From Paenibacillaceae bacterium ZCTH02-B3 (lineage in GTDB: Bacteria > Bacillota > Bacilli > Paenibacillales > Paenibacillaceae), in NCBI GenBank assembly GCA_002159065.1, contig LZRV01000077.1, positions 12,476-76,475 on the forward strand: DNA of 64,000 nt, given 5' to 3'. The position numbers and the translations under genes are program-made. Below the pieces are notes generated by a model that saw only the letters and a list, made by a program, of their open reading frames with translations, was not told where the DNA came from and did not search any database. Shown here piece after piece: positions 43,108 to 62,616 of the stretch (position 1 is its first letter; the number at the start of each line of letters is the position of its first letter).

Positions 43108-43308
43108 TCAAACGCCATATCGCGCATCGCAGATGGAACACATCGAGTATCCCGGCTTCTTGGGCCTTTTGCCGCACGCTACGCACAAATCCGATTTGGA
43201 CCCCCCGGCGACCTGCTCCAGATCCGATTTGCCAAGCTCCCGGTGATCCGGACGGTGTCCTTCCCGTCCGCCGGCTTCACTCCGCGCGTGAAGGTTTTCC
43301 CGATCCAT
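43108..43308 (-). CDS. Double-glycine leader peptide, four-Cys core (candidate RiPP precursor A)
   Basis: GGAGGAA lies 6 nt before ATG 43308. Leader ...RELGKSDLEQVAGG, core SKSDLCVACGKRPKKPGYSMCSICDARYGV. Confidence 0.6.
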   Translation of the reverse strand: MDRENLHARSEAGGREGHRPDHRELGKSDLEQVAGGSKSDLCVACGKRPKKPGYSMCSICDARYGV

Positions 43309-43450
43309 GCGTCATTCCTCCGTTTCGCTGGTTATGGTCTGCAAGCTTTCATTTCTTCGCGCTGCGTCCTTCCGATCCGCTTCCCGTTTCTCCGGGCCGG
43401 ATCTTCCCGTGTCCGTCTATCGGGCAACTCCGCTTTCCTTGGATGTTGGT

Positions 43451-43663
43451 TCATCCCTGCCGGGATTTCAAATTCACAAGGCATTTGGAGCAAAGATCGA
43501 ACCCCTGGACGGCCACGTTGTCGCAACCCGGGGTCGCGCACGGGTGAACCGATGCGCCGGTGCCGCCGAAAATGAATTCGAGTTCCTCATCGTTCAGTTC
43601 GCGATTCGACAGACCGCGTTCGCCGTCCTTTTCCCGTTCCGGACTGAAGCCTTCCCCGTTCAT
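43451..43663 (-). CDS. Double-glycine leader peptide, four-Cys core (candidate RiPP precursor B)
   Basis: GAAGGAA lies 6 nt before ATG 43663 (Met17 of the track ORF). Leader MNGEGFSPEREKDGERGLSNRELNDEELEFIFGG, core TGASVHPCATPGCDNVAVQGFDLCSKCLVNLKSRQG. Confidence 0.6.
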   Translation of the reverse strand: MNGEGFSPEREKDGERGLSNRELNDEELEFIFGGTGASVHPCATPGCDNVAVQGFDLCSKCLVNLKSRQG

Positions 43664-43701
43664 CTTCCATTCCTTCTTTTTCCTCGTGTTTTGGTATGCC
43701 C

Positions 43702-43745
43702 ATCGTAACATGCCATTTTAAAATGGAGTTTAAATTCCTTTTAAA
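43702..43745 (-). promoter_or_regulatory. Phased-repeat promoter in front of precursor B/A
   Basis: On the minus strand: TTTAAAAggaaTTTAAACtccaTTTTAAA, 9 nt (atggcaTGt), then TACGAT. The 7-mers are exactly 11 bp apart. Confidence 0.6.
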
Positions 43746-43748
43746 TCA

Positions 43749-44462
43749 TTATAAAATTTCCATCCGGTATCCGATGCCCCTGACGTTCTGGATGACGGAC
43801 AAATTCGAGACTTGCAGGATTTTTTTGCGCAGGGTGCTGATATGCACCGCCACCGTGCGAAAATCGTCCAGGCCGTCGTAGCCCCACACGATGCGGTAGA
43901 TTTCTTCGGGCTGAAAGACACGCTTCGGATTTTCCGCCAGCAGGACAAGCACCTTGAACTCTTTCGTGGTCAGTTGCACCGGGCGGCCTTCGACTTCCAC
44001 GGTGCAGCTTTCCAGATCGATGGTGAGCGGACCCAGCCGGATGACGCTTTTGGTTTCCTGGGCCGCCGCCAGCTCCTTCTTGCGTTTGATCAACAGGCTG
44101 CGGCGCAGGTGCGCCTTGACCCTGGCCACCACTTCCCCCTGGCTGTAAGGCTTGCTGATATAGTCGTCGGCTCCCGCCATGAGCCCCATGATCTTGTCCA
44201 TCTCGGAACATTTCGCGCTGATCATGAGAATCGGCACGTCCGTCAGCTTGCGCAATTCCTGGCAGATCATGACGCCATCGCCGTCCGGCAGGATCGCTTC
44301 CATGAGAATGAGATCCGGGGGATTGTCCCGCGCGCTCCGCAAGGCCGCGTCCGCCGAATGGCAGCCGGTGACGCGGTATCCGTCCGACTGAAGCGCCGTG
44401 CCGATCTCCCGACGAACCGCTTCATCGGGATCGGCGATCAGGATGAGGGGTTGCCCTTGCAT
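43749..44462 (-). CDS. OmpR/PhoB-family response regulator, orphan and atypical (Glu at the phospho-acceptor position)
   Basis: The REC domain reads LILIADPDE...PDLILMEAILPDGDG...ILMISAK...ISKP. The winged-helix output reads LTTKEFKVLVLLAENPKRVF...VRGIGYRM. The start is taken at ATG 44462. The TTG at 44534 lies too close to a TATAAT at 44555-44550. Confidence 0.85.
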   Translation of the reverse strand: MQGQPLILIADPDEAVRREIGTALQSDGYRVTGCHSADAALRSARDNPPDLILMEAILPDGDGVMICQELRKLTDVPILMISAKCSEMDKIMGLMAGADDYISKPYSQGEVVARVKAHLRRSLLIKRKKELAAAQETKSVIRLGPLTIDLESCTVEVEGRPVQLTTKEFKVLVLLAENPKRVFQPEEIYRIVWGYDGLDDFRTVAVHISTLRKKILQVSNLSVIQNVRGIGYRMEIL

Positions 44463-44613
44463 CGGGAAACGGTCTCCTTTACCTCGGTTTTCGGCCATAC
44501 CCATACGATACGAGACATTTCGCTCTATTCGCAAGATTCGTTACTTTCCATTATAATCCGGGAAGGAAAAAAATCTATTCAAACCCAGTTTTTTAGCGGG
44601 GATGGTTTGAAAT

Positions 44614-44668
44614 TTTAAACAGAATTTAAACTTGATTTAAACCAGTTTTGAATGTTGTGTGGTATCTT
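44614..44668 (+). promoter_or_regulatory. Phased-repeat promoter in front of the three plus-strand Nif11-type precursor genes
   Basis: TTTAAACagaaTTTAAACttgaTTTAAACcagtTTTGAAT with 7-mers at 44614, 44625, 44636 and 44647. This is followed by 9 nt (gttgtgTGg) and then TATCTT (44663-44668). Confidence 0.65.
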
Positions 44669-44751
44669 TTGATCACAACGAACGAACGATTCTTCCGTGA
44701 ATCCATATCCGTTCGATCACATCCGCCTAATCTCAAAGGAGGGAATTCCCA

Positions 44752-45093
44752 ATGTCGCTCACAAACGCGCAAGCCTGGTTGGAAAAGGTTCGGACCGACC
44801 CCGATCTTCAGGCCAAAATCCGGGAACTGGCCCCCGAACAGCCGGACCGGATTCTGGACGCCCTCGTGGCCGCCGGTGCGGAGGCCGGTTACGCGTTCGG
44901 CAAGGAAGATTTGCTGCAAGCCGCCAAAGAGGCGGTATCTTCCGCCGCCGGGAGCCCGGACGAGCTGGACGAAGAACAGCTGGAGCTGGTGGCCGGCGGC
45001 GACGATACGATCCTGTACGTTTTAGGGTCCATTATCACGGCGGGAATTGGATGTGCCATGCTTGGCTTGAAGCATGCCATCAAAGGTTCCTGA
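44752..45093 (+). CDS. Nif11-type leader peptide precursor 1
   Basis: RBS GGAGGG. Leader MSLTNAQAWLEKVRTDPDLQAKIRELA...EEQLELVAGG, core DDTILYVLGSIITAGIGCAMLGLKHAIKGS. Confidence 0.85.
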   Translation: MSLTNAQAWLEKVRTDPDLQAKIRELAPEQPDRILDALVAAGAEAGYAFGKEDLLQAAKEAVSSAAGSPDELDEEQLELVAGGDDTILYVLGSIITAGIGCAMLGLKHAIKGS

Positions 45094-45172
45094 AAAGAAA
45101 CCCGCGTCAGGGGACCCGGGTACCCCTTCATCCCTCGAATCAACACCCCTAAATTGACTGGGAGGAGATCCA

Positions 45173-45562
45173 ATGTCGTTGGAAAGCGCTCAAGCCTGGT
45201 TGGAAAAGGTCCGGGCCGACTCCGAGCTTAAGGCCAAAATCCTGGAACCGGCCGCCGGACAGCCGGACCGGATTCTGGACGCCCTCGTCGCCGCCGGTTC
45301 GGAGGCCGGTTACACATTCAGCAAGGATGATCTGTTGCAAGCCGTCAAAGAGGCCGTTTCCGAAATCGTCGCCAGGCGAACGGACGGCCTGGACGAAACG
45401 CAGCTGGAATCGGTGGCCGGCGGCGTTTCGGAGGACGTCATTGCGTACTCCTTTGGATCGTTTGGCTTCGGATGTCTCGTATCGTGGCTTCAGGGCTGCG
45501 ATCTTGAAGAAGAAGCGAAAAAAGCGAATAGACCGCCCGGTCCCTATGATCCTTCCTACTGA
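45173..45562 (+). CDS. Nif11-type leader peptide precursor 2
   Basis: RBS GGAGGAG. Leader MSLESAQAWLEKVRADSELKAKI...ETQLESVAGG, core VSEDVIAYSFGSFGFGCLVSWLQGCDLEEEAKKANRPPGPYDPSY. Confidence 0.85.
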   Translation: MSLESAQAWLEKVRADSELKAKILEPAAGQPDRILDALVAAGSEAGYTFSKDDLLQAVKEAVSEIVARRTDGLDETQLESVAGGVSEDVIAYSFGSFGFGCLVSWLQGCDLEEEAKKANRPPGPYDPSY

Positions 45563-45686
45563 CGATTCGTTCGCCTGCAGGCGATTCACCCTTGCGGGCT
45601 CTTCTCGCGCCGCCGGTTCGGTTTTGCTTTCGGCTCCGGGTCCGTTCGGCGCACTTCATCCAACACAAAGACGGGGAGGGATGACC

Positions 45687-46034
45687 ATGTCTGTAGAAAA
45701 TGTCAAGTCGTTCCTGGAAAAAGTGCGGTCCGACTCCGGCTTGCAAAGCCGCATCGGCTCCCTGGCGTCGGACAAGCCGGTTGACGCGAAGGAGGATTGG
45801 TTCCTGGACAGCCTGGTCGCCATCGGCGCGGAGTCCGGCTTTGCGTTCAGCAGGGAGGATTTGCTGCAGGCCGCCAATGAGATCAGGCATAACGCGGTTT
45901 CCGGCGAACTGGACGACGCCCAGCTGGAATCGGTGTCCGGCGGTCTCGATCTCTTCTGGCATATTGTGTTTTCTTTTGCCGTCTTTGGATGCATAGCCGT
46001 AGAAATTGTGGAATGGGGCGAGAAATTGGAATAA
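45687..46034 (+). CDS. Nif11-type leader peptide precursor 3
   Basis: GGGGAGGG lies upstream. The start is ATG 45687 (MSVENVKSFLEKVRSD...), with 45681 as an alternative. The leader ends DAQLESVSGG and the core is LDLFWHIVFSFAVFGCIAVEIVEWGEKLE. Confidence 0.85.
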   Translation: MSVENVKSFLEKVRSDSGLQSRIGSLASDKPVDAKEDWFLDSLVAIGAESGFAFSREDLLQAANEIRHNAVSGELDDAQLESVSGGLDLFWHIVFSFAVFGCIAVEIVEWGEKLE

Positions 46035-46061
46035 CAAGAATCGGAAAAGCCGTACCGGCGT

Positions 46062-47582
46062 TCAGCCTTCCGTTCTGATCCGGATCCGCCCTTCGCTCCC
46101 GTAATCGACAGACCCTTTTTCCCGCGTCAGTTTCTTTGCATATTGAATCAAGGCGTCGGTCAGGACCCCCGCGTCTTCGTCGACGACCCTGCCTTCAAAC
46201 CGGTATCCGTCGCCGCCCGTGCCAAGGAAATCCGGCACGGCGACCCGGTAGACCCGATCCGGATCGACGGGCTGCCCGCCAATGGCAAGCTCCGCGGACC
46301 TGAACGCGCCGGACCCGTCGGTCACGATGACGTAATGCAGGCCCGACGTCTGCAGGTCGACCCGGTTTCTGCCCTGACGCGTATACGAGTATTCGATCAC
46401 GTCCCGCAGGGCTTTGCCGGTCATTTCCACGATCATCACCCGGTTCTGGAACGGCTCGATCCGATGGATGTCGCCCACGGTCATGTCGCCCGGCGCGATC
46501 TCGTTGCGGATGCCGCCGTTGTTCGTGAAGGCGATCTCCGCGTTGTACGCGTCGCGCATGGCGTCCGTCCAGAAATTGCCGACGGGGACGTCTTTTTCAT
46601 ATAATCCTTCCGCGGACAATCCGGTCGCGGTGCGGCCGATGACTTCGCTCAGGAAGGCTTCCAGTTCCTTCTTGTAGCCTTCCGCCTTATCCCGCACCGC
46701 CGCATCGGTTTCCTTGAGTTCTGCCGTCGGCTGCAGCCGGCTGTCCGCAAGTTTCGTTTGTCCGGTCGCGCGATCCAGTTCCAGCTTCACAACGCCGATG
46801 TATCGCAGATCGGCGCCGGCCCGCACGATGGGCGTGCCGTTCACCACTTCGGGACCGCCCGGCGGAGTTTCCCCGCTGCCGCTCACGATCAGGTCGAACA
46901 GGTCGAACCGCTCGGCGAGCCGGCGGTCTTCCTCATCGCCGATGTGCGTGAGCGCGATCAGGATATCCGCCTCGCCGCGCAGGCTGGCGAAACGCTCCAC
47001 GGTGGAGGCGTAATCCCGGAATTCCAGGCCGACGATCCCGCTCCGGCGCGTCTCCGGAGGCGCCTCGGTGATCCCGAGCACGCCGACCTTCACGCCGTCG
47101 AATTCAAACAGGGCATAGGGCTGCGGCTGCCTGATGGGGATCGAAGGGTCCGCCACCTCCATATTGGCGCTGAGCCACGGAAAACGGGAGTCGGCCATGT
47201 TGCGGGCGAACTGTTCCTGTCCGTAGTCAAAATCGAGATTGCCCACCGTCATGGCGTCGAGCCCGGCATCGTTCATCAGATCGATCATGGGCTTGCCTCG
47301 CAGGATGTCCACCACGGGATTGCCTTTGAACATGTCCCCCGCGTCCAGGTACAGCGCGGGACCGGCGGCCTTCGCGTCTTTGACGAAGCGGGCCAGTTGG
47401 CCCGCCGGATCGACGTTGCCGTGCATGTTCGCGGTGTGCAGGACGGTCAGGGTAAAGCGGCCGTTTTTCCCCTCCTCTTCCGGCGATGCTTCGCGGTCCT
47501 TTGGGGCGCAGGCCGCGGCCCCCGGGACTAGCAGGGTTGCGACAAGGGCGACGAGGAACCATTTTCGCGACATGCGTTTCAT
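46062..47582 (-). CDS. Bifunctional metallophosphatase/5'-nucleotidase-like lipoprotein (UshA/YfkN family)
   Basis: Signal peptide and lipobox MKRMSRKWFLVALVATLLVPGAAACA. Motifs include TVLHTANMHGNV, DAGDMFKGN and GNLDFDYG, plus a C-terminal nucleotidase domain. The start is taken at 47582. Confidence 0.8.
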   Translation of the reverse strand: MKRMSRKWFLVALVATLLVPGAAACAPKDREASPEEEGKNGRFTLTVLHTANMHGNVDPAGQLARFVKDAKAAGPALYLDAGDMFKGNPVVDILRGKPMIDLMNDAGLDAMTVGNLDFDYGQEQFARNMADSRFPWLSANMEVADPSIPIRQPQPYALFEFDGVKVGVLGITEAPPETRRSGIVGLEFRDYASTVERFASLRGEADILIALTHIGDEEDRRLAERFDLFDLIVSGSGETPPGGPEVVNGTPIVRAGADLRYIGVVKLELDRATGQTKLADSRLQPTAELKETDAAVRDKAEGYKKELEAFLSEVIGRTATGLSAEGLYEKDVPVGNFWTDAMRDAYNAEIAFTNNGGIRNEIAPGDMTVGDIHRIEPFQNRVMIVEMTGKALRDVIEYSYTRQGRNRVDLQTSGLHYVIVTDGSGAFRSAELAIGGQPVDPDRVYRVAVPDFLGTGGDGYRFEGRVVDEDAGVLTDALIQYAKKLTREKGSVDYGSEGRIRIRTEG

Positions 47583-47610
47583 CCCATCCTTTGTTTGTTT
47601 CGAGTCCGGA

Positions 47611-48750
47611 TTATCCATCGGTTTTCGTCTCATCGGCCAGCCGGCGGAATCCTTCATCGTCGGCCAATTCCTCCAGCGTGAACCGCGAGAGCGTCAGGAT
47701 GAGCCGCGCCTTCTCCTCATGGGAGAGCTTCCCGCCGGGAAACCGGCGGTTCCATTTTTCCAGCCGCCGGGCGGCTTCGACGACCAGCCCTTGCAAAATG
47801 GCGAAGGCGCCGTCGGACAGCGTTCCCCGGTACTGGTGAATCCGTCCGTCCGGACGGCAGTCCGGGTAGCGTTCCAGGCCGAGGAAACGCAGGAACCACT
47901 CCGCCCGGTATTCGCCCGCCGCGACGATGATCGCGACGAAGTCGGCAATCAGCTCGTCGAGCAGCCGGGTGCGCATCGCGCCGAGCACGCGCCGGGTGAA
48001 ATAGTGGACGGATTCGTGTTCCAGGCGGATGGCCAGCGACAGCATCCGCCATTCGTGCTCCGGAAGCCCCATTTCCGCCGCGCCGACCTTGCTGTAGGGT
48101 CCGTCGGTCACGATGGCAAAGCGGTCCAGGTACAGTTCCTTCGGGAGCTCTCCCCCTTCACCCGATGGTTCCCGCCCGTCCCGGTGCCGTTTCAGCCGGT
48201 CCCAATTGCGATAGCCGGATATCAGGCAGGCGCCCATGGTGTCGGGGATCGGTTCCGGTTCGTTTCTCCGGACCAGGGCCTGGACCAATGCGACGAAATC
48301 GCTCCGCTCGCGGACGACGATGACAGGCAGGTGTCCGGCCGGCGTCGGGTGAAAAATCAGCTCGAGGCTGTCCGGGCTTCGCAGGATGAGTCCCGTCGCT
48401 TCGGGTATGCCCCGGGGATTTGCGCCCTGGCGGGTCACCGCCTGGTAGGCGGCCGTCGAGCTCATGCCTTCCCGGACCGGAAACCGCAGCTGGACCAGCT
48501 TCTCCTTCAGCACGGGAAACACGCCGGTCCCCCGGGCTTCCTCCGCGTAGCGCCGCCAGTCGGCGACAAACGGCTCGTCGTCCAGCGGATACTTCTGCGG
48601 AGGCGGATGCGCAAACACGTTGTCATTGTAGGCAAGCAGTTCTTCCGCTACCCGCCCGGTCGCGCCGAAGCGCGCGAGCACTTCCCTTCGAAGCGTGATC
48701 GGATCCACGGCCGCCTCCGGTTTGAGAAGATTTTCGCGCGACGTGCACAT
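47611..48750 (-). CDS. Uncharacterised 379-aa protein with an HExxH motif, encoded 4 nt after lanM
   Basis: The start is taken at ATG 48750, because Met1 of the track ORF lies inside lanM. HESVH is encoded at 48004-48018 within LAIRLEHESVHYFTRRVL. I recognise no family. Confidence 0.7.
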   Translation of the reverse strand: MCTSRENLLKPEAAVDPITLRREVLARFGATGRVAEELLAYNDNVFAHPPPQKYPLDDEPFVADWRRYAEEARGTGVFPVLKEKLVQLRFPVREGMSSTAAYQAVTRQGANPRGIPEATGLILRSPDSLELIFHPTPAGHLPVIVVRERSDFVALVQALVRRNEPEPIPDTMGACLISGYRNWDRLKRHRDGREPSGEGGELPKELYLDRFAIVTDGPYSKVGAAEMGLPEHEWRMLSLAIRLEHESVHYFTRRVLGAMRTRLLDELIADFVAIIVAAGEYRAEWFLRFLGLERYPDCRPDGRIHQYRGTLSDGAFAILQGLVVEAARRLEKWNRRFPGGKLSHEEKARLILTLSRFTLEELADDEGFRRLADETKTDG

Positions 48751-48754
48751 GTTC

Positions 48755-55512: not shown

Positions 55513-55526
55513 GCGCTCCCCCTCTG

Positions 55527-58187
55527 TCAGGCCATTTGCCGTTTGGCCAGTTCGTAAAATGTCCCGCCGCGGTCCATCAGTTCCCGGAACGTCCCTTCTT
55601 CCACGACCCGGCCGTTTTCCAGCACGTAGATGCGGTCGGCGTTCATGATCGTGCTCAGCCGGTGGGCGATGACCACCCGCGTCGCTTTCAGCTGTTCGAT
55701 GCTGTCGCTGACCATCTTCTGCGTCCGGTTGTCCAGGGCGCTCGTGGCTTCGTCGAAGAACAGGATTTTCGGCTTGTGGACCAGGGCCCGGGCGATCAGA
55801 AGGCGCTGCCGCTGTCCGCCCGACAGCGTGCGGCCGCCGTCGTCGACCATGGTGAACATGCCCATCGGCATGTTGCGGATGTCCTCTTCCAGCCCGGCCA
55901 TCCGGGCCGCCTCCCAGGCGTCTTCCATCGTCAGGTTCGAAGAACCGATAATGTTGGTCAAAATGTCGCCGGCGAGCACCTGTCCTCCCTGTAGGACGAC
56001 GCCCAGCTGGCTTCTCACTTCCTGGATATCCAGGTCTTGCAGATTGTGATTGTCGTAGTAAACGGCTCCGGAGGTCGGGCGTTCAAATCCGAGAAGCAGG
56101 CGGAGCAGCGTCGACTTGCCGCTTCCCGACGGTCCCGCGATGGCGACGAATTCCCCGGGGTTGACCCGGATGGACACATCCTTGAGCACAAATTCCCCGT
56201 CTTCATCGTAACGGAAATCGACGTGGCTCACCTCGATGGCGCCCGTGAGCTCCCCGGGATCTTCCTTCTCCTCGCCGATCTCCGGCTCCGTCTCCAGAAT
56301 CGGCTTGGCCCGTTCATACAACGGAATGATGTTGAGCGCCATGATGAGGGACGTCCCCATGGCCATCATCGACATGATGAATCCGGAAAACGCGCTGTGA
56401 AAAGCGAGAAACGCCCCGGCGGGCATCGCCGGCGCGAACCCGATCACCCCGAAAAACAGCAGCATCGTCGTAACCGTGGGATAGACCGCATGGAACACGG
56501 AGGACCAAATGCGGATGAGCCCCGTGCGGAAGCCCGTTTTCCGGACTTCCCCGAAATGGTCCGACCACATGCCGAAGGCTCTTTTTTCCGCGCCGGCCAT
56601 GCGAAACTTGGAGACGCCGCCCACGATCTGGAACACGATTCCGGTCAGCTTGCCGTTGAGTTCCGCCAGCACCCGTTCCTTGCGGACCATGACAAAACCG
56701 ATGAGCGCCACCACCCCGATGCCGACGGCCACCAGGACGGTGGCCATCCAGGCCAGCCGGGCGCTGTAATAGAACAGCAGAAAAAACTGGGTGGATGAAA
56801 ACAGGGCGTTGAAGACGGTGTTCAGCGTCGTCCCCGACAGCGCCTGCCGGATTGCGGCGATGCTGCCCGCGCGAAGGGCCAGATCCCCCGAACTGTATTT
56901 CCGGAAAAACGGCACCGGCAGATTGAGCACCCGGTCCCAGACCGCGGCCTGAATGCCGGAGTCGAGCCGCGCTTCCATGCGCAGCATGGCGATGGAGCGC
57001 GTAATCTGGAACGTAAGCGACGCCACGGCAATGGCGGTGAGGATCAGCACGAAATCGAACATCCGGCCGCGTTCCGCGCCCGGAATGATGCGGTCCACCA
57101 GTTCTCCCGTCCCCATGGGAATGGCGAGGGACAGAAGACCGCCGATGATGCCGAAGGCGGTCATCACAAAGACGTCCTTCCGGAGCCGGGGCGTCTGCGA
57201 GCTGAACCGCATCAGATCCCAGAGGGTGAGCCGGCGCGGGGGAAACGGCCGGTACAACATGTAGGCCCGCCGGTCCAACTGCCGGTCGATTTCCCGGGTC
57301 ACCCGCCGGACGTTCCCGTCGACCAGATCGTGCATCTCGTAGTGTTTGTCTCTTTTGACAATAAGGGCAACCGGACGCCGATCCTCCTTGCGGAAGGCCA
57401 GCAGGTGTCCGTTGTCCTGCTTCCACCACTCGCCTTCCAGCTGGACTTGCCGCATCCGGATTTTGGACGCCTTGACGATCTGTTTCAGCCGCGCCGCGGG
57501 ATCCTCATCGGACGATTTCCTCAGCGGCGCGGTGACGGGAATATGGCTTTTTTGTCCGATGAGCCGGCACGTGCGGAACAGGACATCGCGATCCAGCACC
57601 GTCACCTTGGGAGCCTGGTCCTTCCCGAACCGGATGGTGTCCGTCAGGTTTTTCACGGACAGCTCCATCCGTTTCCGGTCGATGACCGTCAGCCGCCGCA
57701 GGCGTTCGGCTTCCCGCGCGGACGACGCCGCCAGGAACCGCCGCACCGCCTCCAGAAAGGCTTCCCGGTCGAAGGATTCCGGCTTGGGAACATCGGTGCC
57801 GGCGAGCTGCATCCATCTGAGCAGCCGGTCTTCCCACTCCCGGACCAGACGCGCAAATCCCGGAATCGAGGAACGCTCGTCCGCCGGCGCGTCGATCCGG
57901 ATCAGTTCCGTGTCCGCAACCCCGGTCATCACCAACCGGAAGGGAAATTCGCGTTCCCTGTCCGGGTCGATGCCGAGGCCGGCGATGAGCTGGCCTTCCC
58001 GCACGGATAAGAGATATTCCCGTCTCCCCCGCGCTTCCGGATCCGTTCCCGCCACCGCAAACAGGTTCACCTCGCCGGTCCGCACATACCACGCGGACCG
58101 GTCCCGTCCCCAGTCAACGGTCCGGTTTCCCGTGAGCGGCATGATTTCGCCGAGTTTTTCCAGTTCCAACGCGAGACTGTCCGACAT
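55527..58187 (-). CDS. ABC exporter (permease + ATPase) with ~330-aa N-terminal extension and no C39 peptidase; NHLM-type second transporter
   Basis: Six TM segments, Walker A GPSGSGKST, signature LSGGQRQR. The N-terminal region has a beta-barrel-like pattern (cNMP-binding-like) and lacks the QxxxxxCG peptidase motif. Confidence 0.85.
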   Translation of the reverse strand: MSDSLALELEKLGEIMPLTGNRTVDWGRDRSAWYVRTGEVNLFAVAGTDPEARGRREYLLSVREGQLIAGLGIDPDREREFPFRLVMTGVADTELIRIDAPADERSSIPGFARLVREWEDRLLRWMQLAGTDVPKPESFDREAFLEAVRRFLAASSAREAERLRRLTVIDRKRMELSVKNLTDTIRFGKDQAPKVTVLDRDVLFRTCRLIGQKSHIPVTAPLRKSSDEDPAARLKQIVKASKIRMRQVQLEGEWWKQDNGHLLAFRKEDRRPVALIVKRDKHYEMHDLVDGNVRRVTREIDRQLDRRAYMLYRPFPPRRLTLWDLMRFSSQTPRLRKDVFVMTAFGIIGGLLSLAIPMGTGELVDRIIPGAERGRMFDFVLILTAIAVASLTFQITRSIAMLRMEARLDSGIQAAVWDRVLNLPVPFFRKYSSGDLALRAGSIAAIRQALSGTTLNTVFNALFSSTQFFLLFYYSARLAWMATVLVAVGIGVVALIGFVMVRKERVLAELNGKLTGIVFQIVGGVSKFRMAGAEKRAFGMWSDHFGEVRKTGFRTGLIRIWSSVFHAVYPTVTTMLLFFGVIGFAPAMPAGAFLAFHSAFSGFIMSMMAMGTSLIMALNIIPLYERAKPILETEPEIGEEKEDPGELTGAIEVSHVDFRYDEDGEFVLKDVSIRVNPGEFVAIAGPSGSGKSTLLRLLLGFERPTSGAVYYDNHNLQDLDIQEVRSQLGVVLQGGQVLAGDILTNIIGSSNLTMEDAWEAARMAGLEEDIRNMPMGMFTMVDDGGRTLSGGQRQRLLIARALVHKPKILFFDEATSALDNRTQKMVSDSIEQLKATRVVIAHRLSTIMNADRIYVLENGRVVEEGTFRELMDRGGTFYELAKRQMA

Positions 58188-58210
58188 CTGCCGTTCCCCT
58201 TCCCGGAGCG

Positions 58211-60367
58211 TCAGGCTTCCCGTATCAGCCTGGCATAGGGGCCATCCACGCCCGCCAGCTGTTCATGCGTTCCCCGCTGGACGATCTTCCCCCGGTCCAT
58301 CACGATGATCTCGTCGCAGTCGCGAATCGTGCTGAGCCGATGAGCGATGATCAGGCACGTGCAGCCCCTCCTGCGGAGGTTGCGGTCGATCGCGAGTTCC
58401 GTCGTGGGATCAAGGGCGCTCGTCGCTTCGTCCAGGACCAGAATCGACGGATTGTTGACGAGCGCCCGGGCGATCTCCAGGCGCTGCTTCTGGCCGCCGC
58501 TGAAGTTTCGCGCCCCCTCCTCGATGATATGGTCGTAACCGCCCGGCTTTTTGACGATGTCGTCGTGGATGCAGGCGTCCTTGGCCGCGCGGACGATGTC
58601 CGTTTCGGGCACCGTCGGATCCCACAGCGTCAGATTGTCCCGGATGGTGCCCTCGAACATGTGGATGTCCTGGTCCACGACGGCGACGGAATTCGTCAGC
58701 ACGTAACGGTCCCAATCCCGGCGGGGCTTTCCGTCGAACAGGATTTCCCCGCTCCAGGGCTGATAGAGACCGGTCACCAGTTTCGCCACCGTAGACTTGC
58801 CGCTGCCGGAGCCGCCGACGAGCGCCACCCTGGACCCGGGTTCGAGCACCAGGTTGAAATTCTCGATCAGCGGCGGTTCCAGGCGGCTGTATCCGAAGGT
58901 CACGTCGCGCAATTCCACCTTGCCCGTCAGCTTGCTTACCGGATGATCGGCCTGAAACTCCGCTTCCCGCTCCCTTTGCGTTTCGGGATCCAGTCTGTAC
59001 CGGAGCACGTCGTTCAGCCGGTTCAGATCCCCTTTCACTTCGTCCAGCTGGCTGCCGAGCTGGATCAGGCCGTTCACGGGGGCCATGAAGCTTTGCATCA
59101 GGGATTGAAACGCCACCACCATCCCGATCGTCATCTCGCCCGACATGACCAGCCAGCCGCCGATCCCCAGGATGGCGATTTGGCTGAGAAACGTCAGGAA
59201 AGGCGGAACGGCGTTCACCGCCTGTGTCTGCAGCCCGAGCTTTTGCTGCGTGTTCGTCAGCTTCGCATACAGCCCGGCCCACTTGTTGAAGAAGTCCCCT
59301 TCCCGGCCGCCGGCTTTCAGCGTTTCGATCATCCGCAGTCCGGCCATGGTCGTGCCCGCGATTTTCCCCTGTTCCTGGAGGAGCTTCATGTTTTCGTCCA
59401 CGCGGATTCGCGACACGCGCCTGAGATAAAGGAAATTCAAAATGGCGAAAAACACGGCGACCAGCGTCAAGAGAACGCTGTATCGCACCATGATCACCGT
59501 ATAGAAAACGACCGACAGGCAGTTCAGGAAGTTGGTGGAAAGCTGGCCCGACAGCAGCATCGCCACCCGGTCGTTCGAACCGATCCGCTGCGTGATGTCG
59601 CCGCTGTGCCGCTGGGTGAAAAACTCCATGGGCAGGCGAAGCACGTGCCAGAAATACTTGCCCGCCATGCTGATGGACAGCGCCGTTTCCAGTCTCAGCA
59701 GGTAATATTGCTGCAGCCATGTGAAGGCGCCATGGAGCAACGCCGCCGACGCCATGCCGACGAGCAGGGGGAGGAGCCAGTGATGCAGGCCGGCCAGCAG
59801 GATGTCGTCCACGAAAAGCTGGACAAACATGGGAATGACCAGACCCGGCACGACCAGCAGGAGGCTGACGAGCACGACGTACAAGAGCGCCGCTTTCATC
59901 GGCGCGATCCGGGCGTACAGCAGGGAGAGAAAATTCGCTTTTCGCTTTTCCTTCTTGAAATGCTCGCCGGGCTCAAAGACGAGCACAATTCCCGTGAAGC
60001 TGCGGTCGAATTCCTCTTCGGTCACGGTTCGCCGGCCGGTGGCGGGATCGTTCAGGTAAAACTTCTTGTTGCGGAAGCCTTCCAGCACGACAAAATGGTT
60101 GAAATTCCAGTGGATGATCACCGGCATTTTCATCTGTTTGAGCTCTTCCGGCTCTTTCCGGTAGCCTTTGGCAACCAGGCCGTATTCCCGCGCCGCCTTC
60201 ACGATGTTGCTCGCCTTGCTGCCGTCGCGCGACACGCCGCAGGCGACCCGCAGCTCTTCCAAAGGGATGTGCTTGCCGTGGTAACCCAAAATAATGCCCA
60301 AAGCGGCGGCCCCGCACTCCACCGCTTCCATTTGGATGACCGTGGGAGTTTTCACGCGATTGCCCAT
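58211..60367 (-). CDS. Bacteriocin/lanthipeptide ABC exporter with N-terminal C39 double-glycine peptidase domain
   Basis: From ATG 60367 the sequence reads MGNRVKTPTVIQMEAVECGAAALGIILGYHGKHIPLEELR (catalytic Cys). Walker A GGSGSGKST, signature FSGGQKQR. Confidence 0.9.
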   Translation of the reverse strand: MGNRVKTPTVIQMEAVECGAAALGIILGYHGKHIPLEELRVACGVSRDGSKASNIVKAAREYGLVAKGYRKEPEELKQMKMPVIIHWNFNHFVVLEGFRNKKFYLNDPATGRRTVTEEEFDRSFTGIVLVFEPGEHFKKEKRKANFLSLLYARIAPMKAALLYVVLVSLLLVVPGLVIPMFVQLFVDDILLAGLHHWLLPLLVGMASAALLHGAFTWLQQYYLLRLETALSISMAGKYFWHVLRLPMEFFTQRHSGDITQRIGSNDRVAMLLSGQLSTNFLNCLSVVFYTVIMVRYSVLLTLVAVFFAILNFLYLRRVSRIRVDENMKLLQEQGKIAGTTMAGLRMIETLKAGGREGDFFNKWAGLYAKLTNTQQKLGLQTQAVNAVPPFLTFLSQIAILGIGGWLVMSGEMTIGMVVAFQSLMQSFMAPVNGLIQLGSQLDEVKGDLNRLNDVLRYRLDPETQREREAEFQADHPVSKLTGKVELRDVTFGYSRLEPPLIENFNLVLEPGSRVALVGGSGSGKSTVAKLVTGLYQPWSGEILFDGKPRRDWDRYVLTNSVAVVDQDIHMFEGTIRDNLTLWDPTVPETDIVRAAKDACIHDDIVKKPGGYDHIIEEGARNFSGGQKQRLEIARALVNNPSILVLDEATSALDPTTELAIDRNLRRRGCTCLIIAHRLSTIRDCDEIIVMDRGKIVQRGTHEQLAGVDGPYARLIREA

Positions 60368-60384
60368 TGCGGAACGCACCCGCC

Positions 60385-61344
60385 TCATTTGAGCTGAGGG
60401 AAGATCTTCGCCAGGGGCGGCGAATCTTCCACCGTGATGATGCCGTTCACCAGCGTCCCGCTTTGGATGGGAACGGGCGGGCCATCCGAGCTGGACCATT
60501 TATAGCCGCTTTCCGTGCCGGCGTCCGGAATCAGATGAACCCTCACTTCGATGGGAGCGCCCGCCCCGGCCAGCGTTCTCGCCAGATCTTCGTTGCCGAG
60601 CACGTTGACCATTCCCTGGAAGGTCGAAGGAAACTCGTTGACGCGGGTGACCCGTCCGAGCAGATATCCGTAGGTTTCTTTCGAAATGGAAGCCGCCTCG
60701 AGCTTCACTTCCATCCCGGGATGGATCCGCTTTCCGTCGCCGGGCGACACGTACAGGACGGCCTCGAGGGTGTTCAGCTGCTCTCCCGCCTGCTCGATGG
60801 TGGCCACCTGGGCCCCCCTGGGGATATATTCGCCGCGCCGCACTTTCACCTCGACGACTTTGCCCGAGTACGGGCTGACGATTCTGGTCGCGAGATTCAG
60901 CTGGTCCCTCAGGGCGTCCAGTTTCTCGCGCAACTCCCGCACCAGGGGCTGGTCGTCCCCGGCTCCGGCGGCGAGCAGGCTGCGGAGCTGGGCTTCGGTA
61001 AACTGGATCTCGCTCAGGATTTCCGGTTGCTGGAGCCGCGCGACCACTTCGCCCTTTTCGATGAAATCGCCGGTCCCGACCCGGATGTCCGACACCTGTC
61101 CGCTTTCGGTGGTCACGATGGTCTGGATCCCGCCCGAACTGATCAGGATGCCCTGGCCGTACACGTTCACCGGCAGACTTCCGGCGAATCCCCAGACGAC
61201 AATGGCCCCGAGCAGGGCAACGACGCCGGCGAGGGCGATCCACGACCGCCAGGAAATGACCGTAAGCAGCCGGTCGAGCTGCTCCGGCGATTCCAGAGAT
61301 TCAAGAGACGCTTTGCGAAAAAGCTGCTGATTCCTCATCGCCAT
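60385..61344 (-). CDS. HlyD-family secretion adaptor (NHLM bacteriocin secretion protein type)
   Basis: The start is taken at ATG 61344. Contains MAMRNQQLFRKASLESLESPEQLD, a single TM helix WIALAGVVALLGAIVVWGF, and coiled-coil plus barrel-sandwich regions. Confidence 0.85.
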   Translation of the reverse strand: MAMRNQQLFRKASLESLESPEQLDRLLTVISWRSWIALAGVVALLGAIVVWGFAGSLPVNVYGQGILISSGGIQTIVTTESGQVSDIRVGTGDFIEKGEVVARLQQPEILSEIQFTEAQLRSLLAAGAGDDQPLVRELREKLDALRDQLNLATRIVSPYSGKVVEVKVRRGEYIPRGAQVATIEQAGEQLNTLEAVLYVSPGDGKRIHPGMEVKLEAASISKETYGYLLGRVTRVNEFPSTFQGMVNVLGNEDLARTLAGAGAPIEVRVHLIPDAGTESGYKWSSSDGPPVPIQSGTLVNGIITVEDSPPLAKIFPQLK

Positions 61345-61574
61345 CGTCAGGATCTCCCTCCGCCCATTCAGGCCGCTCCCCGCCCCGGCGCACGCGGAGC
61401 CGCCGGACAACGCTTGCAACCTCGCCGTATCGATTTTTCCGGTTTATTTCCGAAATTCGTCGTTTTCCAGCGCTTTTTGCGGAAACCCTTTTATTTGTTC
61501 CACAATCGTCCCGCTTTTTCCTTCCGGGTTGTCCCGACATCTTGTCGTTTCATGCCGGACGCGTCGCCATTTCA

Positions 61575-61618
61575 TTCTTAGCACTCCAACCTAAAGTTCA
61601 ACTAAAATTTACATTAAA
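61575..61618 (-). promoter_or_regulatory. Phased-repeat promoter for the export-lanM operon
   Basis: On the minus strand: TTTAATGtaaaTTTTAGTtgaaCTTTAGG, 9 nt (ttggagTGc), then TAAGAA (61580-61575). It lies about 230 nt upstream of the HlyD start. Confidence 0.5.
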
Positions 61619-61765
61619 TTTTTTTTACCGGCGCCGCGGCCCGCAATATTCCGTTCATCCGGCGGACCGGACGCGGATCTCATGCAAAGACCCGGCTTTC
61701 GGATGCGCACCCTGACTTGAGGAGTGGCACCCGAAGCCGGGCCCGTCTGAAGACTCCCGAGCCGA

Positions 61766-62128
61766 TCATTTAAAAACACAAGAGAAGTGTGAATCGCCCG
61801 CCGCCTCCGCGACCGCCCCGATTGCCGAAAGTGCGCATAAAACGCCGGTCGCGGGTATGAACGAAAAAATGAGCCACCAATCTCCGCCGGCGACCGCCTC
61901 CAATTGCGCGTCGTCCAGTTCCCCCGCCGCCCGATACTGGGCGACGATCTCCCGTTGGTACCGTTCCAGATCTTCCGTGCTGAAAGGAAGACCCGCTTCC
62001 TCCCCGAGCCGGACCAGGACGCCCTTCATGTTTTCCCGGCTTTCCTGGCCAAGGCGGGCGATCTTTTCCCGCAACGCTTCATCCTCCCGAACCTTTTGCA
62101 AAAAAAGCCTGACATTTTCCATCGACAT
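61766..62128 (-). CDS. Nif11-type leader peptide precursor 4
   Basis: RBS GGAGTG. Leader MSMENVRLFLQKVREDEALREKIARL...DAQLEAVAGG, core DWWLIFSFIPATGVLCALSAIGAVAEAAGDSHFSCVFK. Confidence 0.85.
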   Translation of the reverse strand: MSMENVRLFLQKVREDEALREKIARLGQESRENMKGVLVRLGEEAGLPFSTEDLERYQREIVAQYRAAGELDDAQLEAVAGGDWWLIFSFIPATGVLCALSAIGAVAEAAGDSHFSCVFK

Positions 62129-62238
62129 CTTGATTCACTCCGCTTCTTTATTTCTGTCCATAAAAAAATATCTTCTTAAACGTGAATACAGTTAAAATCC
62201 GTCCAAAAAAACCGGATGGCAAAACGAACGCGTCGGCG

Positions 62239-62574
62239 TCATCCCTTGAAGGGGGCAAAACCCAACCGGACCGCCGCCTGAAGGATGTACGAATGGCCGT
62301 CGATTTCGTCCTGCGAGATGGAACCCGTTCCGCCGGCCACCAGATCCAGCTGCTCGTCGTCCAGCTCCCCGTTTCTGTTGAAGTTGGCGAAGAGTTCCTC
62401 CTGGAACCGCAAAAAATCATCCGCGCGGAAAGGCAGCCCCGCTTCCTCGCCCAGCCTGGTCAGGCCAACCAGCATATTTTCCCAGCTGTCGGCTTCCATG
62501 CCGGAGATCCTCTTTTGCAGCTGTTCATCGTTGTTGACCTTTTTCAGAAACATCTTCACGTTTTCGACGGACAT
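62239..62574 (-). CDS. Nif11-type leader peptide precursor 5 (core without cysteine)
   Basis: GGAGGG lies 7 nt before ATG 62574 (Met6 of the track ORF). Leader MSVENVKMFLKKVNNDEQLQKRI...DEQLDLVAGG, core TGSISQDEIDGHSYILQAAVRLGFAPFKG. Confidence 0.8.
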   Translation of the reverse strand: MSVENVKMFLKKVNNDEQLQKRISGMEADSWENMLVGLTRLGEEAGLPFRADDFLRFQEELFANFNRNGELDDEQLDLVAGGTGSISQDEIDGHSYILQAAVRLGFAPFKG

Positions 62575-62616
62575 CTTGATTCCCTCCATCGCGGAATTTC
62601 CTGATCGGCTGACTCT

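What the first reader, a model, noticed from the sequence alone, without database searches (positions are those of the whole stretch)
43108..62589. Composite ProcM-like lanthipeptide locus: one LanM, seven double-glycine precursors from two leader families, an NHLM-type export triad and several non-canonical embedded genes
Seen: nine co-directional minus-strand genes run from 61344 to 46062 with gaps of 28 nt or less, or overlaps. In order they encode a HlyD adaptor, a C39-peptidase ABC exporter, a second ABC exporter, an SBP_bac_3 lipoprotein, a DAACS symporter, a LivJ-like lipoprotein, LanM, an HExxH protein and a 5'-nucleotidase-like lipoprotein. They are bracketed by seven small ORFs with good RBSs. 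The N-terminal part of each small ORF ends in (E/Q/D)-L-(E/D)-x-hydrophobic-x-G-G. Five carry ~80-aa Nif11-type leaders and two carry ~35-aa acidic leaders. An orphan OmpR-type regulator sits in the middle. Established: the combination of LanM, multiple Nif11-leader substrates with hypervariable cores and the HlyD/two-ABC triad is the prochlorosin / NHLP-Nif11 architecture. As I recall, the relevant TIGRFAM models are TIGR03798, TIGR03794, TIGR03796 and TIGR03797, and the architecture was characterised mainly in cyanobacteria. Inference: three aspects go beyond the described systems and make this a candidate for an undescribed variant. These are the occurrence in a Firmicute-like genome, the mixing of two leader classes under one synthetase/exporter, and the embedded solute-binding/symporter/HExxH genes.
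Basis: partly seen in the sequence, partly recalled or inferred. Interest (0 to 1): 0.85.

Follow-up and report, generated by a model that had tools for sequence, protein, structure and literature searches.

The report
Lanthipeptide locus with extended exporter module
This is a real, ordinary-in-kind lanthipeptide (modified peptide) gene cluster from a Paenibacillaceae bacterium. Its "odd" embedded genes turn out to be recurrent, so far undescribed companions of this exporter type in many bacteria. Its two short precursors look like small zinc-binding peptides rather than typical lanthipeptide substrates.

Summary

The window matches Paenibacillaceae bacterium ZCTH02-B3 (Bacillota).

- **Firmicute occurrence:** not new. 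The Lachnospiraceae lah cluster and Haft 2010 already show it.
- **Embedded genes:** they are neither an insertion nor lanthipeptide-specific. DUF7005, the Peripla_BP_6 lipoprotein and, more rarely, SBP_bac_3+SDF recur beside the NHLM triad. This holds across phyla, gene orders and RiPP chemistries (LanM, rSAM/GNAT, unmodified). The 5'-nucleotidase is lineage-specific.
- **Short-leader peptides:** both keep a C-x2-4-C-x9-12-C-x2-[C/H] zinc-knuckle while their Ser/Thr positions drift. Peptide A's core is homologous to tandem zinc-ribbon repeats. They follow the orphan response regulator.
- **Nif11 cores:** by contrast, they share a co-conserved S-x2-[S/T]-x4-C motif across LanM lineages.

One LanM serving both leader classes is therefore unsupported. 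A shared exporter is plausible.

Verdict: a new variant of a known kind. The interesting part is the undescribed accessory module.

The parts
62239..62574 (-). Nif11-leader precursor G (alternative start 62589). Core TGSISQDEIDGHSYILQAAVRLGFAPFKG has no Cys.
   Evidence: TIGR03798 34.9 bits against cut-off 32.3. GG motif found. Absent from the related loci L093 and L096.
61766..62128 (-). Nif11-leader precursor F. Hydrophobic core with 2 Cys.
   Evidence: TIGR03798 48.7 bits. GG motif found.
61438..61521 (-). Conserved block upstream of hlyD. It reads as a truncated Nif11-leader N-terminus (relic or mini-ORF).
   Evidence: 77-80% identical in L093 and L096. The alignment shows RBS+ATG+MFVEQVKEFPQKARENDKF.
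60385..61344 (-). HlyD-type adaptor of the NHLM export system.
   Evidence: TIGR03794 314 bits against cut-off 156.
58211..60388 (-). C39-peptidase/permease/ATPase exporter (ABC1).
   Evidence: TIGR03796 1130 bits against cut-off 853. Peptidase_C39 E=1e-39. The ECG, HFVV and DP catalytic motifs are readable.
55527..58187 (-). Second exporter subunit (ABC2). It has a 200-aa N-terminal extension of unknown fold.
   Evidence: TIGR03797 928 bits against cut-off 709, covering residues 201-885. The N-terminus has no Pfam hit.
54580..55512 (-). SBP_bac_3 lipoprotein (lipobox LGAC). Occasional accessory of the triad.
   Evidence: Pfam E=1.1e-20. Co-located with the triad in L006, L096, L101 and L162.
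53291..54574 (-). SDF/DAACS symporter, paired with the SBP_bac_3 gene.
   Evidence: PF00375 E=2.6e-68. Same loci as above, plus L107, L109 and L163.
52143..53294 (-). Peripla_BP_6 (LivJ-like) lipoprotein (lipobox VAGC). Frequent accessory of the triad.
   Evidence: PF13458 E=1e-51. Present directly beside the triad, on the same strand, in 15 of 35 ABC2-centred metagenome loci of at least 13 kb.
48755..52156 (-). Class II lanthipeptide synthetase LanM of the CCG (ProcM-like) type.
   Evidence: TIGR03897 691 bits; DUF4135+LANC_like. Motifs WCSG...HVCCGNAG. PDB sequence hits to LicM2 and CylM.
47611..48750 (-). DUF7005 protein: cytoplasmic, with invariant HExxH plus D265/E266. Conserved partner of NHLM exporters; function unknown. 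The public gene call starts at 48708.
   Evidence: PF22541 407 bits. Invariant columns in alignment A1. 45 of 49 full-flank GTDB loci have a triad gene within 10 kb. AF2 pLDDT 90 with no PDB fold match.
46062..47582 (-). 5'-nucleotidase-family lipoprotein. Lineage-specific addition.
   Evidence: 5_nucleotid_C E=2e-37. Found only in the window's own lineage: L001-L005, L093/L094 and L096.
45681..46034 (+). Nif11-leader precursor E. Hydrophobic core with 1 Cys.
   Evidence: TIGR03798 45.8 bits.
45173..45562 (+). Nif11-leader precursor D. The only Nif11 precursor conserved in all three related lineages, with conserved Ser and Cys.
   Evidence: TIGR03798 45.1 bits. Orthologues in L003 and L093 keep S2, S9, S20, C17 and C24.
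44752..45093 (+). Nif11-leader precursor C. Its core carries SIITAGIGC.
   Evidence: TIGR03798 49.6 bits. Motif S-x2-[ST]-x4-C.
44463..44751 (.). Divergent intergenic region between the regulator operon and the Nif11 C-D-E genes, with promoter-like sites on both strands.
   Evidence: Plus strand 44528-44557 (10 of 12 matches); minus strand 44641-44612. These are consensus matches only.
43749..44462 (-). Orphan OmpR-family response regulator. First gene of a regulator-B-A unit.
   Evidence: Response_reg+Trans_reg_C. No histidine kinase in the locus.
43451..43663 (-). Short double-glycine-leader peptide B. Core carries CATPGCDNVAVQGFDLCSKC (Cys4 knuckle).
   Evidence: The variants P0247, L003 and L093 keep Cys4 but not Ser/Thr.
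43108..43308 (-). Short double-glycine-leader peptide A. Core carries CVACGKRPKKPGYSMCSIC, a zinc-ribbon module.
   Evidence: phmmer hits to tandem repeats GLCxxCGKRPAxPGxxxCxxC (E down to 9e-15). Those proteins hit Pfam Zn_ribbon_3/DZR.
42787..43095 (+). Single-domain rhodanese. Conserved neighbour of peptide A; membership in the system is uncertain.
   Evidence: PF00581 in the public gene calls of L001, L003 and L093. Sequence shown.

Best explanation
The locus is a class II lanthipeptide system built on an extended NHLM-type exporter.

**Shown:**
- A CCG-type (ProcM-like) LanM.
- Five Nif11-leader precursors.
- The HlyD/C39-ABC/ABC triad.

**Inferred mechanism:**
- LanM dehydrates Ser/Thr and cyclises onto Cys in the Nif11 precursors, chiefly at the shared S-x2-[S/T]-x4-C motif. 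Precursor D is the conserved substrate.
- The C39 domain of ABC1 cuts after Gly-Gly.
- The ABC1/ABC2/HlyD complex exports the cores.

**Accessory genes (association shown, function inferred):**
- SBP_bac_3, SDF, Peripla_BP_6 and DUF7005 are not lanthipeptide tailoring genes. They form a recurrent accessory set of this exporter family.
- My best guess for DUF7005 is a cytoplasmic metal-dependent enzyme that acts on the long Nif11/NHLP leader or on leader-bearing precursors, for example in leader disposal.
- My best guess for the lipoprotein binding proteins and the symporter is that they bind, sense or salvage what is released outside the cell.

**Regulator unit (inferred):** the orphan response regulator plus the two short double-glycine peptides form a separate unit. 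Their cores are zinc-ribbon-like mini-domains. They are more likely exported or regulatory peptides that use the same C39 exporter than LanM substrates.

**5'-nucleotidase:** a lineage-specific add-on.
For: - **Family assignments** are above curated cut-offs. The CCG motif is present.
- **Cluster conservation.** The cluster is conserved in relatives at 70-94% identity (L003-L005, L093/L094, L096) and partly in L006 at 56-76%.
- **DUF7005.** It sits within 10 kb of a triad gene in 45 of 49 full-flank GTDB loci, and within 10 kb of a triad gene or a Nif11 gene in 48 of 49. LanM is present in only 14 of 49. DUF7005 also occurs with rSAM/YcaO/TfuA (L009), with rSAM (L007), with GNAT+NHLP+rSAM (L162), and with Cys-free Nif11 peptides and no modifying enzyme (L101).
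- **ABC2-centred loci of at least 13 kb (35 loci).** Peripla_BP_6 is present in 15, always directly flanking the triad on the same strand. DUF7005 is present in 12. SBP3+SDF is present in 3.
- **Nif11 cores.** 10 of 17 cores from three LanM lineages share S-x2-[ST]-x4-C. D orthologues keep Ser and Cys.
- **Short peptides.** All 8 variants keep C-x2-4-C-x9-12-C-x2-[C/H] while Ser/Thr vary. L093_A has 2 Ser/Thr for 4 Cys. L003_A has His in place of the fourth Cys. The A core is homologous to zinc-ribbon repeats.
- **DUF7005 active-site features.** HExxH and D265/E266 are invariant. In the AF2 model they lie in two consecutive helices that follow a four-strand sheet.
- **Published support.** LahT150 cleaves Nif11, NHLP and short leaders (PMC6363468).
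Against: - Nothing has been tested biochemically.
- DUF7005 has no significant fold or profile match to any zincin or other solved structure. It is cleanly missing from one otherwise identical cluster (L093/L094), so it is dispensable or acts in trans.
- Only about a third to a half of the related triads carry DUF7005 or Peripla_BP_6 within reach.
- The window versions of peptides A and B do have 4-5 Ser/Thr for 4 Cys. Peptide B has a sub-threshold resemblance to the lichenicidin A2 family (E=0.019). LanM modification is therefore not excluded.
- Core G lacks Cys and core E has one Ser, so not every Nif11 peptide need be a lanthipeptide.
Confidence: 0.7

Rival explanations
1. This is one composite lanthipeptide pathway. 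A single promiscuous LanM modifies both the Nif11-leader and the short-leader precursors. The embedded transporter and HExxH genes are pathway-specific tailoring or immunity novelties.
For: - All seven peptides end their leaders in a similar ELxxhxGG motif.
- CCG-type LanMs are known for relaxed specificity (review PMC12328550).
- Window peptides A and B have 4-5 Ser/Thr and 4 Cys.
- Peptide B weakly resembles the lichenicidin A2 family.
- The short peptides are conserved with the cluster in three lineages.
Against: - Ser/Thr partners are not conserved in A and B orthologues, while the Cys4 spacing is. One lineage has a Cys-to-His swap.
- The A core is homologous to zinc-ribbon repeats.
- The accessory genes occur with non-lanthipeptide RiPP clusters and without LanM.
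- Verified multi-precursor clusters usually have similar leaders (PMC7268733).
Confidence: 0.15
2. The solute-binding proteins, the symporter and the 5'-nucleotidase are ordinary nutrient-uptake or scavenging genes. They merely sit in the operon and have no functional link to peptide production.
For: - Their best named relatives are amino-acid, dicarboxylate and nucleotide-handling proteins, all far below equivalog cut-offs.
- The 5'-nucleotidase is restricted to the window's own lineage.
- SBP3+SDF occur in only 3 of 35 related loci.
Against: - Start and stop codons overlap or nearly abut inside the operon.
- The same set is kept in three related genomes. It reappears beside the triad in a GC-32% diderm (L101) and in a GC-49% NHLP/rSAM cluster (L162), in different orders.
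- Peripla_BP_6 is directly adjacent and co-directional in every one of the 20 positive loci.
- No cognate ABC importer permease is present for either binding protein.
Confidence: 0.15
3. DUF7005 is a tailoring oxygenase of the alpha-ketoglutarate/Fe(II) HExxH type, not a peptidase. It hydroxylates or cleaves the core peptides.
For: HExxH proteins in RiPP clusters have recently been shown to be aKG-dependent hydroxylases or oxidative cleavers (PMC12636437). DUF7005 has an invariant HExxH.
Against: - No NCBIfam hit at E<=0.01; I take this library to include the mod_HExxH model behind IPR026337, which I did not check. No PDB fold match either.
- DUF7005 co-occurs with exporters and leaders across unrelated core sequences and chemistries. 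That fits a leader- or export-directed role better than a core-specific one.
Confidence: 0.15

Closest known systems
Prochlorosin system (ProcM/ProcA, Prochlorococcus MIT9313) and related ProcM-like/SyncM systems
   Same: One class II synthetase with the CCG zinc-ligand motif. Several Nif11-leader precursors with different cores. Double-glycine cleavage.
   Different: - Here the precursors are clustered with the enzyme and exporter.
- The cores are long and hydrophobic and share an S-x2-[S/T]-x4-C motif rather than being fully hypervariable.
- The host is a Paenibacillaceae Firmicute.
- The LanM is no more than about 33% identical to anything named.
Lachnospiraceae bacterium C6A11 lah cluster (LahA1-9, LahT; PMC6363468)
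   Same: A Firmicute lanthipeptide operon with many Nif11-type double-glycine precursors and a C39 ABC exporter. The LahT protease domain accepts Nif11, NHLP and short leaders.
   Different: I did not compare sequences or accessory genes with lah. The paper does not describe DUF7005, binding proteins, a symporter or zinc-ribbon peptides.
NHLP/Nif11 'NHLM' export triad (TIGR03794/03796/03797; Haft et al. 2010, PMC2887384)
   Same: All three components are present above equivalog cut-offs, next to Nif11 precursors.
   Different: Haft's profiling found only the three transport genes. Here, and in many related loci, the triad carries extra conserved partners: DUF7005, Peripla_BP_6 and SBP_bac_3+SDF.
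Acylated Nif11 RiPPs/lanthipeptides (selidamide and nostolysamide type; PMC8784127, PMC13060382)
   Same: The nearest LanM clade beyond the window's own lineage (43-44% identity) sits with Nif11 precursors of the same core motif. In L090 it sits with GNAT plus fatty-acid synthase-like genes.
   Different: The window locus has no GNAT or acyl-chain genes.
Regulator-plus-double-glycine-peptide units of class II bacteriocin loci, and orphan regulators of lantibiotic clusters such as MrsR1 (from memory, not checked here)
   Same: A response regulator co-transcribed with small double-glycine-leader peptides that would use the bacteriocin exporter.
   Different: No histidine kinase is present. The peptide cores are Cys4 zinc-ribbon modules, which I know of in no described pheromone or bacteriocin.

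Membership tests
Class II lanthipeptide synthetase (LanM) | N-terminal dehydratase domain (DUF4135) plus C-terminal LanC-like cyclase, scoring above the TIGR03897 cut-off | tested here: met
   DUF4135 E=1.7e-89; LANC_like E=2.5e-50; TIGR03897 691 bits against cut-off 304.
ProcM-like (CCG-group) LanM | Cys-Cys-Gly instead of Cys-His-Gly at the second and third zinc-ligand positions | tested here: met
   WCSG...HVCCGNAG in the window protein and in its 25 nearest relatives. Of 120 homologues, 33 have CCG and 81 have CHG.
ProcM-like (CCG-group) LanM | One enzyme processes many different substrates | not testable with these tools
   Five Nif11 precursors are encoded, but modification needs co-expression and mass spectrometry.
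Nif11-leader RiPP precursor (TIGR03798) | Leader scores above the curated cut-off and ends in Gly-Gly | tested here: met
   Precursors C, D, E, F and G score 49.6, 45.1, 45.8, 48.7 and 34.9 bits against cut-off 32.3.
Nif11-leader RiPP precursor (TIGR03798) | The same test applied to the two short-leader peptides A and B | tested here: not met
   No hit for A. B has only sub-threshold hits: TIGR03893 15.3 bits against cut-off 32.95, and TIGR04149 14.6 against 25.
NHLM bacteriocin export system | HlyD (TIGR03794), peptidase-ABC (TIGR03796) and ABC (TIGR03797) present together, each above cut-off | tested here: met
   314 against 156, 1130 against 853, and 928 against 709 bits. The genes are adjacent and co-directional.
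DUF7005 (PF22541) | Full-length match to the Pfam model | tested here: met
   407 bits, covering model positions 2-360 of 361.
Zincin/gluzincin metallopeptidase (for DUF7005) | HExxH helix plus a downstream acidic ligand helix, and a fold related to known zincins | tested here: inconclusive
   The motif and helix arrangement are present and invariant. The best Foldseek PDB hit has E=0.33, and there are no Pfam peptidase hits.
aKG-dependent HExxH hydroxylases (IPR026337) | Sequence membership in the family model | tested here: not met
   The NCBIfam scan returned no family at E<=0.01. I assume, from memory and unchecked, that this library holds the mod_HExxH model (TIGR04267) behind IPR026337. 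The family is described in PMC12636437.
Zinc-ribbon module (for the cores of peptides A and B) | Two Cys knuckles with conserved spacing, and homology to recognised zinc-ribbon domains | tested here: met
   C-x2-4-C-x9-12-C-x2-[C/H] in 8 of 8 variants. The A core matches tandem repeats in proteins that hit Zn_ribbon_3/DZR. Direct Pfam scans of A and B gave nothing significant. Metal binding was not tested.

The most novel reading that the evidence does not exclude
The NHLM exporter is really part of a larger conserved machine with three elements:
- DUF7005 would be a new kind of metal-dependent enzyme that processes or disposes of the long Nif11/NHLP leaders.
- The Peripla_BP_6 and SBP_bac_3 lipoproteins, with the SDF symporter, would capture, sense or salvage what the exporter releases.
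- Small double-glycine-tagged regulator partners would couple gene expression to exporter activity by being cleaved and exported. Here these partners are zinc-ribbon peptides behind an orphan response regulator. Elsewhere they are GG-tailed proteins behind ECF sigma factors.
Probability: 0.2. Interest if true: 0.8.

Novelty: new variant of a known kind. Interest (0 to 1): 0.55.

Why it matters
NHLP/Nif11 systems are among the largest RiPP precursor families. Their exporters and proteases are used as tools.

The 2010 description of the export system lists three genes. This analysis shows that a well-conserved HExxH protein of unknown fold (more than 1,700 homologues) is tied to that exporter across phyla and chemistries. 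A LivJ-like lipoprotein is likewise found beside many related exporters, though not in the cyanobacterial loci. I found no paper that mentions either link.

Knowing what these genes do could explain three things: how 80-residue leaders are handled after cleavage, how producers cope with very hydrophobic products, and why heterologous expression of such clusters often fails.

The double-glycine-tagged zinc-ribbon peptides would be a new cargo type for C39 exporters.

Tried and rejected
- **Exact look-up of DUF7005 with my start codon** found nothing. The public gene call starts 14 codons later. The look-up via P0001 worked.
- **DUF7005 structure and profile searches** gave no significant match. 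Foldseek against the PDB gave a best E of 0.33. The A1 profile against PDB sequences gave one spurious hit. Relaxed Pfam scans of 18 members found only DUF7005.
- **The N-terminal 200-260 residues of ABC2** and four homologues have no Pfam match. I therefore cannot say whether this region is a C39-like or a cNMP-like domain.
- **The homologue search for peptide B** found only two close variants.
- **The terminator scan** gave no more sites than shuffled sequence (20 against 21.6). Promoter-like sites are consensus matches only.
- **The GTDB scan did not return the window's own species.** Taxonomy came instead from exact matches of DeoB and Pdp.
- **Literature searches** for DUF7005, for ZCTH02-B3, and for Nif11 together with symporter or binding-protein terms returned nothing relevant.
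- **My first CCG/CHG count** was confounded by the WCHG first-ligand motif. I redid it.

Full report

Yes. ORF listing and translation show nine co-directional minus-strand genes from 61344 to 46062. With the start codons that have the best ribosome-binding sites, the junctions are overlaps of 4-14 nt or gaps of 4-28 nt.

- HlyD: TIGR03794, 314 bits against cut-off 156.
- C39 ABC exporter: TIGR03796, 1130 bits against 853.
- Second ABC: TIGR03797, 928 bits against 709.
- SBP_bac_3, SDF symporter and Peripla_BP_6.
- LanM: TIGR03897, 691 bits against 304, with DUF4135 plus LANC_like.
- An HExxH protein that is a full-length member of Pfam DUF7005 (407 bits).
- A 5'-nucleotidase-family protein and an OmpR-type response regulator.

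A six-frame scan of the whole window for the double-glycine motif gives eight hits, and seven lie in this locus. Five precursors pass the Nif11 leader model (35-50 bits, cut-off 32.3). The two short ones match nothing above cut-off.

Three corrections apply:
- Three of the Nif11 genes (44752-46034) are on the plus strand, convergent with the operon.
- The regulator lies at the 3' flank, between the short-leader pair and that trio.
- One Nif11 core (G) has no cysteine.

**2. Whose genome?**

The window is identical to an ENA metagenome contig. Its phosphopentomutase and pyrimidine-nucleoside phosphorylase are exact matches to NCBI proteins of the MAG "Paenibacillaceae bacterium ZCTH02-B3", phylum Bacillota. 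So "Firmicute-like" is right despite about 62% G+C.

**3. The lanthipeptide core**

The LanM carries WCSG...HVCCGNAG. This is the Cys-Cys-Gly zinc-ligand motif that marks ProcM-like enzymes (review PMC12328550). All of its 25 closest homologues carry it too.

Its close relatives exist only in unnamed metagenome data:
- 71% identity in two sister lineages.
- 48% identity in a single protein.
- 43-44% identity in a clade encoded next to Nif11 precursors.

Nif11 cores from the window and from those clades share a hydrophobic S-x2-[S/T]-x4-C motif, in 10 of 17 cores. Precursor D is the only Nif11 peptide kept in all three sister lineages, and its serines and cysteines are conserved. This co-conservation of donor and acceptor residues is what true LanM substrates should show. 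I therefore take the Nif11 peptides, D above all, as the enzyme's substrates. That is an inference; nothing here tests chemistry.

**4. The "embedded" genes**

The order HlyD-ABC1-ABC2-SBP3-SDF-PBP6-LanM-(DUF7005)-5'-nucleotidase is kept in two sister lineages at 70-94% protein identity (L003-L005, L096; L093/L094). The exporter-SBP3-SDF-PBP6 part is kept in a third at 56-76% (L006).

These genes are also not peculiar to this cluster.

*DUF7005.* It has more than 1,700 homologues, mostly in cyanobacteria, Acidobacteriota, Rhodothermales, Gemmatimonadota, Rubrobacter and Chloroflexi.
- Among 49 GTDB loci with full 10-kb flanks, 45 have an NHLM triad gene nearby.
- 48 of the 49 have a triad gene or a Nif11 gene nearby.
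- Only 14 of the 49 have a LanM.
- It also sits with rSAM/YcaO/TfuA plus Nif11 in Desmonostoc, with rSAM, and with GNAT plus NHLP plus rSAM (L162).
- In L101 it sits with cysteine-free Nif11-like peptides and no visible modifying enzyme.

*The converse test.* I centred 80 metagenome loci on the ABC2-specific region. All 35 loci of at least 13 kb have the full triad. Among those 35:
- 15 have a Peripla_BP_6 homologue (33-53% identity), always directly flanking the triad on the same strand.
- 12 have DUF7005.
- 3 have SBP_bac_3+SDF. These are the window's own lineage, a GC-32% diderm with TolC-like genes (L101), and a GC-49% NHLP cluster (L162).

*The 5'-nucleotidase.* It is confined to the window's own lineage.

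*Chance.* My rough estimate, not a computation, is that a particular Peripla_BP_6 subfamily would fall in a random 20-kb stretch a few per cent of the time, and DUF7005 far less often.

*Conclusion.* DUF7005, Peripla_BP_6 and, more rarely, SBP3+SDF are recurrent accessories of this exporter family, independent of RiPP chemistry. Haft et al. (PMC2887384) reported only the three transport genes from phylogenetic profiling. No paper in the searchable library mentions DUF7005.

**5. What is DUF7005?**

Facts in hand:
- It has no signal peptide.
- H245-E246-x-x-H249 and D265-E266 are invariant in 18 diverse members.
- The AlphaFold model is confident (pLDDT 90). It places these residues in two consecutive helices that follow a four-strand sheet. 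That arrangement is reminiscent of zincins.
- No solved structure matches significantly. The best Foldseek E is 0.33, with a scatter of zincins among meaningless hits.
- Profile searches against PDB and Pfam find nothing.
- It gave no NCBIfam hit, so it is not detectably a member of the aKG-dependent HExxH hydroxylase family (PMC12636437).
- It is cleanly absent from one sister cluster (L093/L094, with a 57-nt gap between LanM and the 5'-nucleotidase). It is therefore not essential in cis.

Its linkage is to the long leader and the exporter rather than to any core chemistry. My preferred guess is a cytoplasmic metal-dependent enzyme acting on the Nif11/NHLP leader or on leader-bearing precursors. 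This is inference with modest confidence.

**6. The two short-leader peptides**

They lie immediately downstream of the response regulator on the same strand, and this unit is conserved in all three sister lineages. Their leaders are conserved and end in a textbook ELxxhxGG.

Their cores do not behave like lanthipeptide cores.
- Across eight variants, the pattern C-x2-4-C-x9-12-C-x2-[C/H] is always kept.
- Ser/Thr positions are not kept. One A variant has two Ser/Thr for four Cys. Another has His in place of the fourth Cys. In the B variants, the serine next to the last Cys pair is replaced.
- A full HMMER search of 1.8 billion representatives shows that the A core (LCVACGKRPKKPGYSMCSIC) is homologous to a module GLCxxCGKRPAxPGxxxCxxC.
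- That module occurs as 2-13 tandem repeats in larger proteins, some of which score as Zn_ribbon_3 or double zinc ribbon.

The most economical reading is that A and B are double-glycine-tagged zinc-ribbon mini-domains. A shared exporter is credible, because the LahT protease domain needs only about the last 13 leader residues and cuts Nif11, NHLP and short leaders alike (PMC6363468). A shared synthetase is not supported, though it is not excluded.

Other NHLM loci place an ECF sigma factor next to a small protein that ends in a GG or AG motif. In L162 that small protein has a CPDCGRPRG knuckle. This makes me suspect an export-coupled regulatory role. That is speculation.

**7. Comparison with what is known, and novelty**

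The system works like, and passes the tests for, a ProcM-like/Nif11 class II lanthipeptide system with the NHLM exporter.

Occurrence in Firmicutes is already documented in two places:
- Nif11 precursors beside this triad in Desulfitobacterium, and NHLP precursors beside it in Pelotomaculum (PMC2887384).
- The nine-precursor lah operon of a Lachnospiraceae (PMC6363468).

What I could not find described is the following:
- The recurrent accessory set around the exporter.
- The GG-tagged zinc-ribbon peptides paired with an orphan regulator.

I therefore rate the locus a new variant of a known kind. The accessory-module observation is worth following up, so I give an interest of 0.55.

**8. Limits**

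- All functional statements beyond family membership are inferences from sequence, conservation and gene neighbourhood.
- The co-occurrence counts come from the best 80 loci of two capped scans. They use BLAST best-hit assignment (at least 60 bits) rather than curated models.
- Many loci are truncated contigs, so absences are soft.
- Promoter-like sites in the divergent region 44463-44751 are consensus matches only, and terminator-like sites are no more frequent than in shuffled sequence.

Noticed in passing
window 61438-61521 (-), with L093 511-594 and L096 5919-5991: A block about 100-180 nt upstream of hlyD is 77-80% conserved in all three sister lineages. It reads as RBS+ATG+MFVEQVKEFPQKARENDKF, the N-terminus of a Nif11 leader, and is stopped after 20-37 codons. 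It is either a decayed precursor gene or a conserved mini-ORF.
   Followed up: partly
window 42787-43095 (+): A 102-aa single-domain rhodanese (active-site loop CLSGVRS) lies next to the Cys-rich peptide A, on the opposite strand, in all three sister lineages. Any link to the peptides is unknown.
   Followed up: no
L092 18705-19554; L101 821-1678; L162 1094-2081; L033 9650-9997: In three of these NHLM loci (L092, L101, L162) an ECF sigma-70 gene is followed by an 80-137-aa protein. L033 has a similar protein just upstream of DUF7005. The proteins share an N-terminal 'ELAxRFxxDIDRIxQ'-like region in L033 and L162, looser in L092 and L101. They end in a GG/AG leader motif plus a short acidic tail or, in L162, a CPDCGRPRG knuckle. 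This may be an anti-sigma-like partner that the exporter cleaves or exports.
   Followed up: partly
L101 1-18787 (metagenome contig Ga0247721_100198, GC 0.32): Gene order: ECF sigma, GG-tailed small protein, two TolC-like OEP genes, Peripla_BP_6, the triad, SBP_bac_3, SDF, four Nif11-like precursors and DUF7005. The precursor cores have no Cys and all end in GWF. No modifying enzyme is visible.
   Followed up: partly
L090/L091 5217-13198: The nearest LanM clade (44% identity) is encoded after six Nif11 precursors, a GNAT and a KS/KS/ACP/FabA/KR set. This looks like an acylated (lipo-)lanthipeptide pathway.
   Followed up: no
L093/L094 13294-13351: One sister lineage has the whole cluster but lacks DUF7005. 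Only 57 nt separate LanM from the 5'-nucleotidase gene. This is a natural deletion (or non-acquisition) that could serve as a comparison strain.
   Followed up: partly
P0249, P0252, P0253, P0256, P0262: Proteins are built from 2-13 tandem copies of a 'GLCxxCGKRPAxPGxxxCxxC' zinc-ribbon separated by basic helices. One has a C-terminal HNH nuclease. Most copies are not covered by Pfam models.
   Followed up: no
window 55527-58187 (-), residues 1-200 of ABC2: The second ABC subunit has an N-terminal extension of about 200 aa (up to about 300 aa in homologues). It lies outside the TIGR03797 model and has no Pfam match. In Desmonostoc (L009) a separate cNMP_binding protein sits beside DUF7005.
   Followed up: partly
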